From a virus (lineage: Duplodnaviria > Heunggongvirae > Uroviricota > Caudoviricetes), in the IMG/VR virus record IMGVR_UViG_3300017650_000009: DNA of 64,000 nucleotides; one strand, given 5' to 3'. Both the position numbers and the translations under genes were made by a program. This document shows positions 2,103 through 50,799 of this stretch, piece after piece. The notes beneath the pieces were generated by a model. That model was given only the letters and a program-made list of their open reading frames with translations, made no database searches and was not told the origin of the DNA. Each line of letters opens with the position of its first letter. Position 1 is the first letter of the stretch.

Positions 2103-2606
2103 TGTCTAACATTTTCGGATTCATTGGATTTTTAGTATTGATGATGGCCCTGGTTGTACTCCTTGCTATTTCTCCGGTGGTTCCGGAAATGATCCTTTCA
2201 CTCATCTAGGAGAATAAAATGTTTGCATTTGTCGTTGGTCTAATCGTTGGTGCACTTGTGGGTCGCACTGAATGGTTCCAAGAGAAGTTCAATATTGTAG
2301 CTTCCTACGTACGGAATGCTTTGGGTCAGTAAAGCAGACATATATTGGGTTCCGTTCCAAGCTTAAATATCATGGGGAATTATCCCCTTTGATCGGAGGC
2401 GGAAATGGAATTCATTATTGGTATGACTTTGGGACTAATCGTTGGTTGGAATGTAATCCCACAGCCAGAGTTCGTTAAAACTCTCATGGACTATGTCGTT
2501 GAGAAGCTTGGCAAAAAGGACGAAGCTAAGGAAGATGAAACCAAGTAATTTGGTTGACTAAAATGATCCTCGTGTTAAGTTTGAGAAAACAACACGAGGA
2601 TTTTCT

Positions 2607-2912
2607 ATGACTGATGAAGAAGCACTAGCTCGTTTCAACAAATTAAAGACGATCATCTTGGCGAACGGTTATGACGCCAACAAATTTGAACCGGAATCGT
2701 ATTTCACTGTTATTAAGTGGATCAAGTTTGATTTGGGTGAACTTACGTTGGCTTATGGTTTGATTGAAAATGACGGACGACTTAATAAGTCCGTTCGTTT
2801 AATCAAGAAGAATATCTGTTTGAGTTGTATTGTGGATAATGGGAATCCGTTTTGGTCAGGATCTCAAACACTCGAAGAGGCATTTTCTGCTATGGAAAAT
2901 GTTCTAAAATAG
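2607..2912 (+). CDS. hypothetical protein
   Basis: Own TTGAC promoter and GAGG SD. Confidence 0.6.
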   Translation: MTDEEALARFNKLKTIILANGYDANKFEPESYFTVIKWIKFDLGELTLAYGLIENDGRLNKSVRLIKKNICLSCIVDNGNPFWSGSQTLEEAFSAMENVLK

Positions 2913-2964
2913 GTTGACTATTCCCATTCCCATGTTAGATTCTAATTAACAAAGGAGATCGAAC

Positions 2965-4385: not shown

Positions 4386-4731
4386 CGTGAAACTCACACA
4401 GGAAGAACTATGTGCAGATATGGAAAAATGGCTCGACTGGGTTGATCAAACTCGAGGTCATATCGCTATTGAGGATCCAGATGGGGAAGTTCGTACATAT
4501 ATTATTCCGTATGAGGAATATGCGAGTTATATAAGGGAGGAAAAATGAAATCAATTCTACGTGCGTTTTTAGATATTTTGGGCGTCCTAGCCATTGTATG
4601 TGTGACGATTTTTATCGCACTGGTATTGCTATTTGGGGTAATGGCCGTTAATACGTTCATGGTTGATGACCAGGAATATATTGACACCATCGAGTGACCC
4701 GCTGCATGATACTGGCAAAGGAGACTTTGCC

Positions 4732-4989
4732 ATGTCTAAACCAACTATCATTCACGTAAATCGCCAGCATATCGCACAGAATGCAAAAGATGGCGGTAAT
4801 CGTCCCGTATATACGACCAAAATCAACGGCAAAACTCGATACGCAAGAGAAGTTGAAATCCAAGGACCATCGCGGATGGTTTATAATGGTGATCAATTGT
4901 CTTGTGGCGCACGAGCTTGGATTGAAACATCAAGCCCCGTGAGACTTGTGGACGAAATGTCCTTTAGCGAGGCTAAAGACGCAAAATGA
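4732..4989 (+). CDS. hypothetical phage protein
   Basis: AAAGGAG SD; MSKPTIIHVNRQHIAQN. Confidence 0.65.
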   Translation: MSKPTIIHVNRQHIAQNAKDGGNRPVYTTKINGKTRYAREVEIQGPSRMVYNGDQLSCGARAWIETSSPVRLVDEMSFSEAKDAK

Positions 4990-8041: not shown

Positions 8042-8518
8042 ATGACTAACATTCGTACTTTTACTACCTCAGAAATCCAAAACATGCTTTCCCGTACAAC
8101 GGTTGGTGCAGAATCACTATTCAATCAGTTTCTCACCCCACGTAGCGAAACTAATTATCCCCCATATAATATTGTCGCAGTTGAACCAAACAAGTATTTG
8201 ATTTTTCTTGCTGTTGCTGGTTTCACTCGTGATGAGCTAACTGTTACAGCCGAAGATGGTGAACTAACAGTTGAGGGCAAATCTGAAGGTTTGAATAAGT
8301 ATTACGAGTTTAGTGATGAGCAAACAGATGAAGATAAGCCAGGAGAATTTCCTGCTGTTATTCATCAGGGAATCGCATCGCGCGATTTCACACGTAAGTT
8401 CAAGCTAATGGAATACGTGCTAGTAAAGGAAGTCACACTGAAGGATGGTTTGTTGATCATCAAGTTGGAACGTGAACTTCCAGAGGCTCTCAAGCCTCGT
8501 ACAATTGAAATTAAGTAA
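8042..8518 (+). CDS. ibpA: small heat-shock protein Hsp20 (IbpA-type)
   Basis: YPPYNI...LAVAGF...LTVEGK...HQGIASRDFTRKF...DGLLIIKL. Confidence 0.92.
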   Translation: MTNIRTFTTSEIQNMLSRTTVGAESLFNQFLTPRSETNYPPYNIVAVEPNKYLIFLAVAGFTRDELTVTAEDGELTVEGKSEGLNKYYEFSDEQTDEDKPGEFPAVIHQGIASRDFTRKFKLMEYVLVKEVTLKDGLLIIKLERELPEALKPRTIEIK

Positions 8519-8562
8519 ACACTGGGGGAGGAGCAATCCTCCCCTTTATCAAAGGAAACTCA

Positions 8563-9129
8563 ATGTCTTACGGATCTCTCACGGTCATATGCGGCCCTAT
8601 GTTTGCCGGGAAAACAACTGAAACCCTAAAGAGAATTCTTTGGGCAACCAATGGTGAGAACAAAACAGTTCATGTGTTCAAGCCAAGTTTTGATACTCGC
8701 TATGGTGAATCAGAAATTGTTTCTCACGACGGACTAAAAGCAACCGCTACCAATATCGCTTCGATACCAGATATAGAGTTCACTCCTGGATCACTCGTAT
8801 TTTTGGATGAGATACAATTTTACATGGCTCCATATTTTGACGGTGATGTGATTAGTTGGGTCAGAACTCTCCTAAGTACGGGAGTTGATGTGGTAGCAGC
8901 GGGTCTTGATATGGATTGGCAGGGACAACCATTTCAAATAACGGCTAGCTTGCTTGCTATGGCAAATGATGCTAAAAAGCTAACAGCACATTGCACGGTT
9001 TGTGGTAGGCCAGCAACAAAGACATATAAGAAAGAAACAACGGAAGATACTGGGTCAGTTGAATTGGGTACCTCGGCCAACTATGAAGCACGTTGTAATA
9101 ATCACTGGAATTTCTCCCAACACGGTTGA
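8563..9129 (+). CDS. tdk: thymidine kinase
   Basis: GPMFAGKTTE, FLDEIQF, AGLDMDWQG, CTVCG, YEARC. Confidence 0.93.
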   Translation: MSYGSLTVICGPMFAGKTTETLKRILWATNGENKTVHVFKPSFDTRYGESEIVSHDGLKATATNIASIPDIEFTPGSLVFLDEIQFYMAPYFDGDVISWVRTLLSTGVDVVAAGLDMDWQGQPFQITASLLAMANDAKKLTAHCTVCGRPATKTYKKETTEDTGSVELGTSANYEARCNNHWNFSQHG

Positions 9130-16143: not shown

Positions 16144-17007
16144 ATGCTTGTATATGCTGCTATCGGTGATGCTTATGGTGCTGCATTTGAATTCGTAGAT
16201 CATTCACGTTGGCCCGACAATGATGGGTTACATTTTTATGCTCATCCGGATTTGCCTTTGGGTAATGGCAAATATACCGATGATACACAAATGATGCTTG
16301 CTCTTGCACGTTTGCTTTTGGATTCAAATTCGTCTGAACTCCCAGACGCTGAAGAGTTCTTTGACGCATGGTTGACCACGTATAAGGAAAATCCGATTGA
16401 TGGTTATTCGAGTGGAATGAAAAAGCTACTTGAAGAATCAACAGATGCATTGGATCTAATGCAACGCCTGGTGCCGTCTAGTTCTCGTAGTGGTGCAGTA
16501 ATGCGAAGTGCGGTGCTAGGGTTCCTACCATCTGTTCTTATGTTAAAGAATTGGTCACGCAAACAAGTATCGACAACTCACAACACGGATATTTCACGTT
16601 ATTGTGGTAGTGCAATTAGTTTGGCTGCCCACTATTTGTTCCATCAAGTCGGTCCGCGTGATTCACTAGGTGAGTTTCTAAATAGGAATGCAGATTCACC
16701 TGTAAGCTTTATCGATTGGAATGAAGACCGTACGGAATGGGCGTCTGTGGAGGCCGTAGACTGTGCTAGGAACGCAATCACTGCATGGCGTAACTCGCGT
16801 ACTCTTACAGAGGTTCTCACAAACAGCGTAGCTCCTGGAGGCGATACTGACACTGTCGCGTGTATTGCAATGGCACTGGCATGGTGTGATGACACGATAA
16901 CAAACGATTTACCAACAAGTATGATTAATCAACTCAATGGTGGTGATTTCGGATTTGAATATCTTTTCAACACAACAAATGAGTTGATACGGAAATTTTC
17001 ACGATGA
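16144..17007 (+). CDS. ADP-ribosylglycohydrolase (DraG/ARH family)
   Basis: AIGDAYG, YTDDTQM, SGAVMR, GGDTDTVACIA. Confidence 0.92.
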   Translation: MLVYAAIGDAYGAAFEFVDHSRWPDNDGLHFYAHPDLPLGNGKYTDDTQMMLALARLLLDSNSSELPDAEEFFDAWLTTYKENPIDGYSSGMKKLLEESTDALDLMQRLVPSSSRSGAVMRSAVLGFLPSVLMLKNWSRKQVSTTHNTDISRYCGSAISLAAHYLFHQVGPRDSLGEFLNRNADSPVSFIDWNEDRTEWASVEAVDCARNAITAWRNSRTLTEVLTNSVAPGGDTDTVACIAMALAWCDDTITNDLPTSMINQLNGGDFGFEYLFNTTNELIRKFSR

Positions 17008-17848: not shown

Positions 17849-19270
17849 ATGCTTTACGGACATAAGGAAATGGTTGACAATCGTATTGGTACGATTGTTA
17901 GCTCAGCAACTACGGTCGAGGAATACGGCGAGTTCATCGCAATCGTCGTTAACCAGTCCAAAAAGACTCGCAACTTCAACGAAGTGTTTACGAGTAAGGC
18001 CCTTCAGCACATGATGGAAGAAATGTATTCGGGATTCAAAAAGCCCGTTCACGTTTTCTATCACGACGACGAAGCGCAGCGTGACGCTTTCTTCAAGGAA
18101 TGGAAAATTGAAGAAGTGAATAACGTTCAGGCGCGTGACAAGCAGGGCGATATGGTGTTCGACGAAAAGTATCGTCGAGAAAACGCCGAAAAGCAGACAC
18201 GCGATGCAGCTATGGAAGCTGCAGAAAAGGCCGGCGTTGACTATACGGGGGATCGTGAACCGACTCTTGCCGAAAAGTTTGGCCTTACTGAAAATGACCC
18301 TTGGGATCGTCGTTCGGAAGCTGATCGTGAACGCGATGAAGAAATGCGCCAGCATATGAAACGTGCGAAGGAAGCCGGTACTATGTCCGATGATAGCTTC
18401 GATGCACCAGCACCAAAGCGTGGTGCAGAACCCGACGTTATGCAGGTGCCTGGACAGTCAGCACCGGGTAACGGAATTCTCAAAATCACAGATATTGATG
18501 GTCTAACCAATCCTGATGGTACGATTAACATCGACAATATCAGCAATATCCGTGCAAGCAAGACTGGTGGACCAGTCGACGAAAACCTCAAGGCCGAACG
18601 TGAGAAGCAGTTCGAGGAAAAGAAAGCTGAAAAGCTTAATGGACGTTCCACGTTCTCTCCGGAAGATTTTGCAAAGGTTCTCGCAGGCAATGGCGGATCC
18701 ATCCCAGGGCGCACCGAAGGTGACAATTCCATCGATAATGGCGCAAAGCCGGTCGATTTGTCCGGGTTGAGTGAAGAAGCGGAAAAGGCTCGTACCGAGC
18801 AGGCAAACCGTGAGAAATCCGCTATGGATCAGACTCGTCAGGAAAACGATCTCAAGGCAAAACAGGAACGTGATCAGGGAGTATTCCGTGGTGCGGACTT
18901 GTTCGGCGAAGATGAAATTGAACTTTCCGAAATGCCGGATGAACTACGCAATGAGCTGGTTCAGATTGGTGCACTTGACAACACCATGCCGATAAAGGAC
19001 TATCCGTTCAACAGTCAGGTCGGAAATAAGGCTTTGCTTCCGTTCTCCCAATACGGGAAGATCATGCAGGGTGGCTCCAAACAGGGCGGTATGATTACGA
19101 CGATCGCCGGCACTGTTAATGTGAATATTGAAGGTACGATGAGCATGGGTGAAACCAGTGTTGCTGTGGTAAGCCGCAAAGACATTCATCGTGAAGGTTA
19201 TGTCGTGTTCCAGCGCACTGGTGGCGCATTGGGCTCGACAATTACAACTTCCATCGTTCGCATTCGATAA
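17849..19270 (+). CDS. large acidic hypothetical protein
   Basis: 473 aa, charged low-complexity core; own promoter, SD and terminator. Confidence 0.75.
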   Translation: MLYGHKEMVDNRIGTIVSSATTVEEYGEFIAIVVNQSKKTRNFNEVFTSKALQHMMEEMYSGFKKPVHVFYHDDEAQRDAFFKEWKIEEVNNVQARDKQGDMVFDEKYRRENAEKQTRDAAMEAAEKAGVDYTGDREPTLAEKFGLTENDPWDRRSEADRERDEEMRQHMKRAKEAGTMSDDSFDAPAPKRGAEPDVMQVPGQSAPGNGILKITDIDGLTNPDGTINIDNISNIRASKTGGPVDENLKAEREKQFEEKKAEKLNGRSTFSPEDFAKVLAGNGGSIPGRTEGDNSIDNGAKPVDLSGLSEEAEKARTEQANREKSAMDQTRQENDLKAKQERDQGVFRGADLFGEDEIELSEMPDELRNELVQIGALDNTMPIKDYPFNSQVGNKALLPFSQYGKIMQGGSKQGGMITTIAGTVNVNIEGTMSMGETSVAVVSRKDIHREGYVVFQRTGGALGSTITTSIVRIR

Positions 19271-19303
19271 TACGGAGGGGGAGAGGCAACTCTCCCCATA
19301 GCC

Positions 19304-24300: not shown

Positions 24301-24543
24301 AAAAACAGTTGACACAGACCCTAAGGTATGCTAGACTGTTTGGTAAGAGCGCAGCGAAAGCTTATCTCTTACAGTTATAGGTGGTTGCTTCCCTATAGAA
24401 GCAAACTTCGGCTTGTAGGATAGCGTGAACTTCGAGTGTCACAATGCTAAACTGGTTTCAAGCGAAGGATACATTACGGGGTCGGACTGTAATAGGTTCG
24501 TCCCCCGTATTGAAAAGCTCAACCGATGGTTGGTCTTTTTTAT

Positions 24544-24618
<75 letters not shown>

Positions 24619-24620
24619 GT

Positions 24621-24750
24621 TTACGAGCCGATTTGTTTAGGTTATCTTTTTTGAACAAAGCGGGCCTGGGTTCAAATCCCAGCGTGAGAACTAGTTCTCA
24701 TGTGGTGTAGTGGTAGCATCGAAAACGTCTAAGCATGTACTTGCTCGTAG
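24621..24750 (+). ncRNA. YrlA/Y-RNA-like circularly permuted tRNA mimic
   Basis: Order is T-arm, capped acceptor stem, D-arm; ends pair with a bulged-C helix. Confidence 0.75.
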
Positions 24751-24758
24751 CTTAACCC

Positions 24759-24832
24759 GGTCTTATGGTGAATGGGTATCACACTAGTCTGTCTAACTGG
24801 AATAGCGGGTTCGAGCCCCGCTAAGATCGCCA
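24759..24832 (+). tRNA. tRNA-Asp(GTC)
   Basis: Cloverleaf, G73, CCA. Confidence 0.93.
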
Positions 24833-24845
24833 AACAAAAGAGTTT

Positions 24846-24930: not shown

Positions 24931-25006
24931 GGGGTGTTAGTGATAGAAGGAAACACGGCGCACTTGCAATGCGCAGAAACGGGGGCGGTACCCGTACACT
25001 CCACCA
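24931..25006 (+). tRNA. tRNA-Ala(TGC), atypical T-loop GGCGGTA
   Basis: G3:U70 pair, loop CTTGCAA, CCA. Confidence 0.85.
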
Positions 25007-42128: not shown

Positions 42129-42282
42129 ATTTAGTCCATATAGTAGCAAGTTGCGACACTACAACTGGTGTCAATGAAGAGCTACGTATTCGTATGGACA
42201 CACAGGAGAAGGAAACTTCTCCTGTTAGGTTGTTAGGATGATCAGGGTTCAACTCCCTGCTTGGATGGGTATCTAGTCCTCT

Positions 42283-42356
42283 TGGGAAGGTCGTCGGTTC
42301 AAATCCGACCTCGAGTGCTTCGGTGCTCAAGTAGCTCAGCCTGGTAGAGCACCCAT
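42283..42356 (+). ncRNA. circularly permuted tRNA mimic (UUCG-capped acceptor stem)
   Basis: AGGTC-GTCGG-TTCAAAT-CCGAC-CTCGAGTGC-TTCG-GTGCTCAAG-TA-GCTC-AGCCTGGTA-GAGC. Confidence 0.75.
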
Positions 42357-42510
42357 GTTATTCAGGAAAGACCTTTGTTAGTGCCACGCAAGTGGAGTGA
42401 CAAGGATAGGTCGTTGATTCGGCGAGGGTGGGGCCGGAATCAAATAATTCTTACAAAAATATTGAACAACTTGGAACTCCTTTGTTACTATGCGTAACAA
42501 AGGAGTTTCC

Positions 42511-45753: not shown

Positions 45754-45832
45754 AGGGACCTAGCTTAAAATCAGGTGAAGCACTGCGGATCCATCCGCAG
45801 GTAGGTAGGTTCGAATCCTGCGGTCCCTGCCA
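45754..45832 (+). tRNA. Trp-like tRNA with aberrant 8-nt anticodon loop
   Basis: AGGGACC/GGTCCCT-G-CCA; loop GATCCATC. Confidence 0.6.
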
Positions 45833-50723: not shown

Positions 50724-50799
50724 GCGCTTATAGCTCAGTTGGTAGAGCAGGGATCTCTAAAATCTTTTGTCGTCGGTTCGAGCCCGACTAAGCGCACCA
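50724..50799 (+). tRNA. amber suppressor tRNA (anticodon CTA)
   Basis: GGGAT-CTCTAAA-ATCTT; otherwise canonical 76-nt cloverleaf, A73, CCA; own promoter. Confidence 0.9.

What the first reader, a model, noticed from the sequence alone, without database searches (positions are those of the whole stretch)
24621..24750. Phage Y-RNA (YrlA-like): circularly permuted tRNA fold on a Ro60-type bulged stem
Seen, 5' to 3': T-arm CTGGG-TTCAAAT-CCCAG; 8-bp acceptor CGTGAGAA/TTCTCATG closed by a CTAG loop; TG; D-arm GTGT-AGTGGTA-GCAT. The termini pair as TACGAGC(C)GA with TTGCTCGTA, giving a bulged C followed by G-U and A-U, with ACTTG on the 3' strand. Established: this helix geometry matches the Ro60 site of human Y RNAs (GUCCGA/ACUUGAC), and bacterial YrlA RNAs carry a permuted tRNA-like domain. 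No Ro60/TROVE gene is in this window. Inference: the RNA engages a phage or host Ro60, or acts as a non-chargeable tRNA decoy for RNA repair or anticodon nucleases.
Basis: partly seen in the sequence, partly recalled or inferred. Interest (0 to 1): 0.85.

Follow-up and report, generated by a model that had tools for sequence, protein, structure and literature searches.

The report
Phage Y RNA inside tRNA array
This 130-base stretch between two tRNA genes of a giant soil phage is a Y RNA: a small RNA with a handle for the ring-shaped protein Ro60 and a back-to-front tRNA look-alike. It belongs to a kind of phage RNA already described, so it is a solid but fairly ordinary find.

Summary
These are the T-arm, an 8-bp acceptor closed by CUAG, U8-G9, the D-arm, and a terminal helix with a bulged C followed by G.U and A-U.

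- **Rfam:** the YrlA model does not match it, even at E<=10. It also misses threshold on a mycobacteriophage that already has a Ro gene (32.5 bits against a cut-off of 69).
- **Independent model:** a covariance model built only from two relatives in other giant phages finds exactly 24621-24750 (65.4 bits, E 1.6e-13).
- **Covariation:** an unfitted alignment with two orthologs (Sinorhizobium phage Phosso and a 462-kb contig) gives 99% paired cells. 14 of 33 pairs change on both sides.
- **Link to Ro60:** the 5' signature (GNC-C-GA, about 8 nt, GGUUAYC) recurs beside phage Ro60 genes, on the gene's strand.
- **Partner gene:** the window has no Ro60 gene. Phosso does, and scan notes place one in this genome about 121 kb upstream.

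Verdict: a phage Y RNA of YrlA architecture, cut out of a tRNA precursor. It is a new member of a known kind. This scan has already found phage Ro60/Y-like RNA sets on other DNA.

One less ordinary point is that the UUAUC motif is the one known from animal Y RNAs.

The parts
24621..24750 (+). Whole Y RNA gene (130 nt)
   Evidence: Full-length hit of model R1, which was built without the window: 65.4 bits, E 1.6e-13.
24622..24631 (+). Helix 1, 5' strand with the Ro60-type handle: UACGAGC, bulged C 24629, then G-A
   Evidence: The C-G pair, bulged C, G.U and A-U are invariant in 19 of 19 family members. The outer pairs covary.
24739..24749 (+). AC followed by helix 1, 3' strand (UUGCUCGUA)
   Evidence: ACUUG is conserved across the family and the pairing is kept through compensatory changes.
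24635..24641 (+). Helix 2, 5' strand (GUUUAGG)
   Evidence: Pairs with 24728-24734. 93% of cells are paired in 20 sequences, and 5 of 7 pairs change on both sides. Two double changes occur among the orthologs.
24642..24646 (+). UUAUC motif directly after helix 2
   Evidence: Present as UUAYC in nearly all members. Also present in 59 of 104 handle candidates on the Ro60 strand of 80 phage Ro60 loci, against 3 of 51 on the other strand.
24647..24665 (+). Linker to the T-arm; C24665 sits at tRNA position 48
   Evidence: The sequence is conserved among the three orthologs although the stems diverge. G15:C48 is seen in 8 members and A15:U48 in 2.
24666..24682 (+). T-arm (CUGGG-UUCAAAU-CCCAG)
   Evidence: 99% paired, and 4 of 5 pairs change on both sides.
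24683..24702 (+). Closed acceptor stem: 8 bp plus a CUAG loop
   Evidence: In the orthologs, 6 of 8 pairs change on both sides and the length is kept.
24703..24719 (+). U8-G9 and the D-arm (GUGU-AGUGGUA-GCAU)
   Evidence: The D-loop has A14, G15 and G18G19. The arm is almost identical in the orthologs.
24720..24727 (+). A-rich segment CGAAAACG between the D-arm and helix 2
   Evidence: Conserved in sequence in the jumbo-phage subgroup. Its role is unknown.
24728..24734 (+). Helix 2, 3' strand (UCUAAGC)
   Evidence: See helix 2, 5' strand.
24544..24617 (+). Flanking tRNA-Gly(GCC) with encoded CCA, ending 4 nt before helix 1
   Evidence: ARAGORN and Rfam tRNA. There is no room for a separate promoter.
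24759..24832 (+). Flanking tRNA-Asp(GUC), starting 9 nt after helix 1
   Evidence: The ortholog in G053 also lies between two tRNA genes, with 6-nt spacers.
24309..24337 (+). Nearest promoter-like site upstream (TTGACA-17-TAGACT, TG-extended)
   Evidence: Consensus scan, 10 of 12 matches. Conserved in Phosso. That it drives this RNA is inference.

Best explanation
The element is a Y RNA of a giant (about 470-kb, Phosso-like) soil phage.

**Shown**
- It is a conserved, structured RNA gene. Its 5' and 3' ends form a 7-bp helix, then a bulged C, then G.U and A-U. This is the Ro60-type handle.
- A second helix follows, and after it an invariant UUAUC.
- The interior is a tRNA body in the order T-arm, closed acceptor stem, D-arm, with the tRNA elbow nucleotides in place.
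- RNAs with the same handle and the same layout lie directly upstream of Ro60 genes in other phages.

**Inferred**
- It is transcribed as part of the tRNA-array precursor.
- It is released by the enzymes that mature the flanking tRNAs: RNase P at the 5' end of tRNA-Asp, and 3' processing of tRNA-Gly.
- The phage's own Ro60, encoded about 121 kb away between the tail sheath and tube genes, binds the handle.
- The tRNA-like module then acts as the effector arm. It recruits a tRNA-recognising factor or a host exoribonuclease such as PNPase to the Ro60 ring, and so redirects RNA decay or RNA quality control during infection.
For: 1. A model built from two relatives only finds exactly this stretch (65.4 bits, E 1.6e-13).
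2. Covariation is strong. In 20 family members, 95.4% of cells are paired and 26 of 32 pairs change on both sides, against 40-48% for slid controls. In the unfitted three-ortholog alignment the figures are 99% and 14 of 33.
3. The handle is invariant while the rest of helix 1 covaries.
4. The element associates with Ro60:
   - TROVE is present in Phosso, G001, G003, G004, G009, G022 and G046, all of which carry such RNAs.
   - TROVE is absent from 44 control records that only matched the search pattern by chance.
   - Only 366 of 50,697 phage records have a Ro60.
5. In G003 and G004 the RNAs sit 85-635 nt upstream of Ro60 on the same strand.
6. In 80 phage Ro60 loci chosen by protein alone, handle plus UUAYC occurs 59 times on the Ro60 strand and 3 times on the opposite strand.
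7. Mycobacteriophage Bxz1, whose group was reported to carry YrlA RNAs (PMC4201824), has three such RNAs upstream of its Ro gene.
8. The tRNA tertiary set is present: U8, A14, G15:C48, G18G19 and the T-loop UUCAAAU.
9. Phage Ro60 binding to adjacent Y-like RNAs, and recruitment of host PNPase, has been shown for Thermus phage phiLo (PMC12135203).
Against: - Rfam YrlA gives no match at E<=10.
- The published GNCGAAN0-1G motif is met only as GCCGAU.
- No Ro60 gene lies in the window. Its presence in this genome rests on synteny with Phosso and on unchecked scan notes.
- There are no transcript, processing or binding data. The runs laid were contigs only.
- For this one sequence, a local hairpin (24632-24641 with 24650-24659) is about 3 kcal/mol more stable than the nested helix 2.
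Confidence: 0.85

Rival explanations
1. It is a tRNA-like regulatory or decoy RNA that works without Ro60. For example, it could titrate or guide tRNA-modifying enzymes, RNase P or a host defence nuclease, with the terminal helix serving only as a clamp.
For: - The tRNA module is the largest conserved block.
- A second permuted tRNA mimic in the same window (42269-42384) has no Ro-type handle.
- The Ro60 gene is far away.
Against: - The handle nucleotides are invariant while neighbouring pairs covary.
- The same handle marks RNAs beside Ro60 genes.
- There is no anticodon loop for anticodon nucleases and no free CCA end.
Confidence: 0.08
2. It is a decaying remnant of two tandem copies of one tRNA gene (the 3' half of the first plus the 5' half of the second), with no function of its own.
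For: It lies in a 42-tRNA array. Tandem tRNA junctions are known false positives for YrlA searches (PMC4201824).
Against: - The two acceptor strands are perfectly complementary and are closed by a tetraloop.
- All five helices are kept through compensatory changes in orthologs.
- The stretch is 100% identical in contigs from three other studies.
- The outer helices carry the Ro60 handle.
Confidence: 0.03
3. It is a circularly permuted gene for a working tRNA or a two-piece tmRNA that becomes chargeable after processing.
For: The order T-arm, acceptor 3' strand, loop, acceptor 5' strand, D-arm is that of permuted tRNA and tmRNA genes. M. smegmatis YrlA can be cut by RNase P and receive CCA (PMC4201824).
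Against: - There is no anticodon stem-loop, no encoded CCA, no G3:U70 and no tag reading frame.
- ARAGORN finds neither a tRNA nor a tmRNA here.
- Rfam tRNA scores 20 bits against a cut-off of 29, and permuted tmRNA gives no hit on it.
Confidence: 0.02

Closest known systems
Bacterial YrlA (Salmonella Typhimurium, Mycobacterium smegmatis; Rfam RF02553; Chen et al. 2014, PMC4201824)
   Same: - The ends pair into a helix that carries a GNCGA-type Ro60 (Rsr) motif.
- The interior is a tRNA mimic in the order T-arm, closed acceptor, D-arm, with G15:C48 / A15:U48 covariation.
   Different: - It does not score with the Rfam model.
- The motif reads GCCGAU, not GNCGAA.
- It has UUAUC after helix 2, where the Rfam consensus reads GGGGAACUAC.
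- It has an 8-bp acceptor and a 19-nt linker before the T-arm.
- It is not beside the Ro60 gene. It sits inside a tRNA array about 121 kb away.
Y RNAs upstream of the Ro-like gene of mycobacteriophages such as Bxz1 (group reported in PMC4201824)
   Same: The same signature, GGC-C-GA, about 8 nt, then CGGUUA(U/C)C. Short and long (tRNA-like) forms occur together. These also stay under the Rfam threshold (32.5 bits).
   Different: Those lie in a cluster directly upstream of the Ro gene. The 3' strand there reads AUG rather than UUG. The hosts are actinobacteria.
Thermus phage phiLo Yrl1 and Yrl2 with phage Ro60 (PMC12135203)
   Same: Phage-encoded Ro60 with phage-encoded Y-like RNAs that carry a CGA(A) motif on a 5'-3' stem. 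This gives a tested precedent for binding and for recruiting host PNPase.
   Different: phiLo RNAs are adjacent to the gene and are not described there as tRNA mimics. I made no sequence comparison with them here.
Animal Y RNAs and nematode stem-bulge RNAs (Rfam RF01656; PMC4726728, PMC4450293)
   Same: Lower stem with a bulged C and ACUUG on the 3' strand, an upper stem ending in GG(G), then UUAUC at the 5' edge of the loop. The Rfam sbRNA model aligns a short paralog in a related jumbo phage at 33.5 bits, against a cut-off of 38.
   Different: Animal Y RNAs have no tRNA-like module. The window's own element gives no RF01656 or Y_RNA hit at E<=10. Homology as opposed to convergence is not shown.
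Deinococcus radiodurans Yrn1 in the Ro60/Y RNA/PNPase complex (RYPER)
   Same: It is the working model: one end of the RNA binds Ro60 and the other module tethers an effector nuclease.
   Different: Yrn1 has a different order of tRNA-like arms (PMC4201824). The effector for the present RNA is unknown.

Membership tests
Y RNA (functional class: Ro60-bound RNA) | The 5' and 3' ends pair into a helix with a bulged C and conserved flanking pairs (the Ro60 site) | tested here: met
   A 7-bp helix, bulged C 24629, then G.U and A-U. These are invariant in 19 of 19 relatives.
Y RNA (functional class: Ro60-bound RNA) | Physically bound by Ro60 | not testable with these tools
   No RNA-protein tool is available, and no pull-down data were found.
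Y RNA (functional class: Ro60-bound RNA) | The same genome encodes a Ro60 (TROVE) protein | tested here: inconclusive
   - None in the window, and no whole genome is held.
- The syntenic phage Phosso has one.
- Scan notes place one 96 kb before the window start, and that stretch shares words with the Phosso protein.
YrlA (Rfam RF02553) | Score at or above the gathering threshold of the Rfam model (69 bits) | tested here: not met
   No hit at E<=10. Related phage RNAs beside Ro60 reach only 29-40 bits.
YrlA (Chen et al. 2014) | GNCGAAN0-1G motif near the 5' end | tested here: inconclusive
   The window reads GCCGAUUUG. GNCGA is met, but the next base is U, not A. Most relatives read GCCGAA or GCCGAU.
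YrlA (Chen et al. 2014) | tRNA-like domain: T-arm, acceptor closed by a loop, D-arm, with tRNA tertiary nucleotides | tested here: met
YrlA (Chen et al. 2014) | Encoded within about 4 kb of Ro60 on the same strand | tested here: not met
   No Ro60 in the 64-kb window. In Phosso the gene lies more than 100 kb from every such RNA found there.
Phage Ro60-associated Y RNAs with the CCGA...GGUUAYC signature (family delimited here) | Handle, then 5-12 nt, then GGUUAYC, and full-length similarity to members next to Ro60 genes | tested here: met
   Model R1 scores both the window (65.4 bits) and Ro60-adjacent members in G004, G003 and L028 (29-49 bits).
Animal Y RNA / nematode sbRNA (RF00019, RF01656) | Score with the Rfam models | tested here: not met
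   No hit on the window element at E<=10. Only a short paralog in G002 comes near threshold (33.5 against 38 bits).
tRNA | Anticodon arm and a free acceptor end | tested here: not met
   ARAGORN finds none. Rfam tRNA scores 20 bits against 29. The acceptor is closed by CUAG.
Two-piece (permuted) tmRNA | CCA end, G3:U70, tag reading frame, match to the permuted tmRNA model | tested here: not met
   The sequence shows U3-A70 and no CCA.

The most novel reading that the evidence does not exclude
The phage Y RNAs share three features with animal Y RNAs and nematode stem-bulge RNAs: the Ro60 handle, the upper stem that ends in GG, and the UUAUC motif at the 5' edge of the loop. If this is common descent and not convergence, phage or bacterial Y RNAs and animal Y RNAs would be one family that moved together with Ro60, possibly carried by phages. 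UUAUC would then be an ancient second protein-contact site. Reviews state that bacterial Y RNAs are not homologous to the vertebrate ones (PMC4726728), and I found no paper that notes UUAUC in bacterial or phage Y RNAs.
Probability: 0.3. Interest if true: 0.65.

Novelty: new member of a known kind. Interest (0 to 1): 0.42.

Why it matters
- **Annotation:** it adds a well-supported, unannotated RNA gene to a lineage of about 470-kb rhizobial-type phages. One cultured member, Sinorhizobium phage Phosso, makes the Ro60/Y RNA pair experimentally accessible.
- **Search strategy:** in giant phages, Y RNA genes can sit far from Ro60 and hide in tRNA arrays. Published searches discard hits in those arrays as tandem-tRNA artefacts, and the Rfam model does not reach them. 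Phage Y RNAs are therefore probably under-counted.
- **A practical search key:** the signature handle plus GGUUAYC.
- **An open question:** the signature raises a testable question about the link between phage and animal Y RNAs.

Tried and rejected
- **Rfam at gathering threshold and at E<=10:** nothing on the element.
- **Single-sequence folding:** z only -1.87, not informative alone.
- **blastn of the element against phage records:** only chance or T-arm matches.
- **Pattern GCCGATTTGTNNNGGTTAT in IMG/VR:** one true relative and six chance hits.
- **My first stem filter (TTGC required):** too strict. It missed three true loci.
- **MAFFT alignments of distant members (A1-A3):** not structurally sound, so they were not used for a model.
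- **Exact 42-nt scan of metagenome contigs:** no match, so the window's own contig could not be fetched to look for Ro60.
- **Whole-genome search:** not possible, because no genome is held.
- **Laying public runs:** contigs only. The element is identical in three other studies, which gives no variation, no ends and no expression evidence.
- **Local hairpin 24632-24641 with 24650-24659:** slightly more stable in this sequence, but its only G-C pair is broken in both orthologs and no pair covaries. I treat it as a competitor fold, not the conserved one.
- **Anticodon-like stem 24648-24653 with 24720-24725:** possible, but without covariation.
- **Readings rejected on anatomy:** anticodon-nuclease decoy, working permuted tRNA, and tmRNA.
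- **Complex prediction:** not used, because it does not take RNA.

Full report
**Setting.** The window carries 42 tRNA genes on the + strand. It comes from an uncultivated soil phage. The nearest record is the 469-kb Sinorhizobium phage Phosso, at 74.6% identity over 24301-24650. The finding lies in a 141-nt gap between tRNA-Gly(GCC) at 24544-24617 and tRNA-Asp(GUC) at 24759-24832.

**Observation.**
- T-arm at 24666-24682.
- An 8-bp acceptor stem closed by CUAG at 24683-24702.
- U-G at 24703-24704.
- D-arm at 24705-24719.
- A terminal helix, UACGAGC (24622-24628) with GCUCGUA (24743-24749). It is followed by bulged C 24629, G24630.U24742 and A24631-U24741. AC precedes the 3' strand.

The minimum-energy fold recovers the arms, but its z-score is only -1.87. 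The case therefore rests on comparison with relatives.

**Rfam.** The YrlA model (RF02553) gives no match to the element even at E<=10. The same model also stays far below its 69-bit threshold on RNAs that lie directly beside phage Ro60 genes:
- 40 bits in G004.
- 29 and 23 bits in G003.
- 32.5 bits in mycobacteriophage Bxz1.

Bxz1 belongs to the phage group for which YrlA RNAs were first reported (PMC4201824). A failed Rfam score is therefore not decisive for phage members.

**Relatives.**
- At the same tRNA-Gly/tRNA-Asp spacer, Phosso has a 66-nt RNA with the same GC-C-GA ... ACUUGC handle. Its stem is changed in a compensating way, it carries GGUUAUCUUUU, and it has no tRNA-like module.
- A pattern from these two (GCCGA, 6-10 nt, GGTTATCTTTT) found 82 IMG/VR loci.
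- Those with a matching closing stem lie in phages G001 (436 kb), G002 (a fragment of a giant phage), G003 and G004.
- Three more loci (L013, L028, L071) turned out to hold clusters of such RNAs once I looked.

**Independent model.** I built covariance model R1 from two long members only (G002 and G001), without the window.
- It hits window 24621-24750 full length at 65.4 bits, E 1.6e-13.
- The same model scores members next to Ro60 genes in G004, G003 and L028 (29-49 bits).
- It also scores further copies in Phosso and in the giant phages G053, G054, G055 and G057.

**Structure.** The model-fitted alignment of 20 members gave these counts:
- 95.4% of cells are standard pairs.
- 26 of 32 pairs change on both sides.
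- Controls with the partner slid by 1-3 columns give 40-48%.

A fitted alignment leans towards its model, so I also aligned the window with its two orthologs by MAFFT alone. The orthologs are G053 190349-190478, which is also 130 nt, and Phosso 19154-19290. That alignment gave these counts:
- 99% of cells paired.
- 14 of 33 pairs with changes on both sides.
- Slid controls at 33-49%.

The acceptor stem differs at 6 of 8 pairs yet keeps its length and a tetraloop.

The conserved fold is nested. It runs helix 1, a 3-by-6-nt internal loop, helix 2 (24635-24641 with 24728-24734), UUAUC, a linker, T-arm, acceptor, U8-N9, D-arm, an A-rich CGAAAACG, and back through helix 2.

For this one sequence, a local hairpin (24632-24641 with 24650-24659) is about 3 kcal/mol more stable. 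It does not covary, and its one G-C pair is broken in both orthologs.

The tRNA elbow set is present: U8, A14, G15 with C48, G18G19, and the T-loop UUCAAAU. Across the family, G15:C48 alternates with A15:U48, as described for YrlA (PMC4201824).

**Link to Ro60.**
- The window has no Ro60 gene. No TROVE domain was found in ORFs of 250 aa or more, and four phage Ro60 proteins give no tblastn hit.
- Every reasonably complete record that carries these RNAs has a TROVE gene: Phosso, G001, G003, G004, G009, G022 and G046. The one exception is a 12%-complete fragment.
- None of 44 control records that matched the pattern only by chance has a TROVE gene.
- Only 366 of 50,697 phage records have a Ro60.
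- In G003, at least five such RNAs stand in tandem, ending about 85 nt before the Ro60 start. In G004 they end about 635 nt before it. Both sets are on the gene's strand.
- As an unbiased test, I took 80 phage Ro60 loci chosen by protein similarity alone. I searched them for CCGA plus a closing stem, then asked whether UUAYC follows within 8-16 nt. The answer was 59 of 104 candidates on the Ro60 strand against 3 of 51 on the other strand. 26 loci were positive, mostly just upstream of the gene.
- Bxz1 shows the same signature three times upstream of its Ro gene.

For this genome itself, Phosso has the Ro-like gene between the tail sheath and tail tube genes. Earlier notes of this scan report an intact Ro60 in the same position 96 kb before the window start. 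A word look-up with the Phosso protein lands on that stretch. I could not read that DNA, so this remains a lead supported by synteny.

**Mechanism.**
- *Shown:* a conserved RNA with a Ro60-type handle and a tRNA-shaped module, homologous to RNAs encoded next to phage Ro60 genes.
- *Inferred, release from the precursor:* helix 1 starts 4 nt after the CCA of tRNA-Gly and ends 9 nt before tRNA-Asp. There is no room for its own promoter or terminator. The G053 ortholog is likewise wedged between two different tRNAs with 6-nt spacers. The RNA is therefore most likely released from the tRNA precursor by RNase P and tRNA 3' processing. The nearest promoter-like site is at 24309-24337.
- *Inferred, function:* Ro60 binds the handle and the tRNA-like module recruits an effector. 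The tested precedents are the Ro60/Y RNA/PNPase complex of Deinococcus and the phiLo phage Ro60 with its Yrl RNAs and host PNPase (PMC12135203). The effector here is unknown.

**Comparison and novelty.** Phage Y RNAs and phage Ro60 are in print:
- 22 phages in PMC4201824.
- Thermus phage phiLo in PMC12135203.
- TROVE genes in some jumbo phages in PMC7824862.

This scan has also reported phage Ro60 with Y-like RNAs in tRNA arrays on other DNA several times. The element is therefore a new member of a known kind. Three things are less ordinary:
- It lies about 121 kb from Ro60, inside a tRNA array. Published searches discard such hits as tandem-tRNA artefacts.
- These phages scatter several short and long paralogs through the genome.
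- The invariant GGUUAYC after helix 2 matches the UUAUC motif known from animal Y RNAs and nematode stem-bulge RNAs (PMC4726728, PMC4450293).

On the last point, the Rfam sbRNA model aligns a short paralog at 33.5 bits, against a cut-off of 38. I found no paper that notes this motif in bacterial or phage Y RNAs. Whether it reflects descent or convergence is open.

**Verdict.** Confidence that this is a Y RNA of the phage Ro60-associated family is 0.85. Interest is moderate.

Noticed in passing
window 42269-42384 (+): A second permuted tRNA mimic: T-arm, a 9-bp acceptor closed by UUCG, UA, and a canonical D-arm. It is preceded by an extra T-arm at 42243-42259 and by GGGUAUC. Rfam YrlA aligns it full length at 34.2 bits (below threshold). 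It has no Ro-type handle, and model R1 does not hit it.
   Followed up: partly
window 24338-24540 (+): A candidate small RNA of about 200 nt just upstream of tRNA-Gly. It has its own promoter-like site (24309-24337) and a terminator-like hairpin (24519-24533 plus a U run). The fold z-score is -3.45. It is about 75% conserved in Phosso and has no Rfam match.
   Followed up: partly
window 24931-25003 (+): A tRNA-like gene with anticodon GCA and an aberrant T-loop. Rfam tRNA scores 39.5 bits, but ARAGORN did not call it.
   Followed up: no
window 50724-50799 and 45754-45832 (+): A tRNA with anticodon CUA (an amber-suppressor type, which ARAGORN labels Pyl), and a tRNA whose anticodon ARAGORN could not assign.
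   Followed up: no
L066 (G003) about 8511-9050 (-); L123 (G004) 2133-2940 (+): Tandem arrays of Y-like RNAs directly upstream of the Ro60 gene, at least five in G003 and about eight in G004. They mix short forms, forms with a T-arm only, and full tRNA-mimic forms.
   Followed up: partly
L001 1855-1920 and 2084-2155; L120 about 4694-4760 (Phosso): Phosso has unannotated short Y-like RNAs in two tRNA spacers. Another handle plus GGGUUAUC lies about 1.6 kb upstream of its Ro-like gene, where it overlaps an annotated hypothetical CDS.
   Followed up: partly
window 24543-24835 compared with run X5: A 22-kb contig from another study carries the tRNA-Gly / Y RNA / tRNA-Asp block at 100% identity. Its upstream sequence is different, and it has 115 extra letters before tRNA-Ala. 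The block appears to move as a unit between related phages.
   Followed up: no
window 24720-24727 and relatives: The A-rich segment (C)GAAAAAC between the D-arm and helix 2 is conserved in sequence across the jumbo-phage subgroup, with no conserved pairing partner.
   Followed up: no
window 16144-17007 (+): An ORF with an ADP-ribosylglycohydrolase domain (Pfam PF03747, E 9e-31), inside the tRNA-rich region.
   Followed up: no
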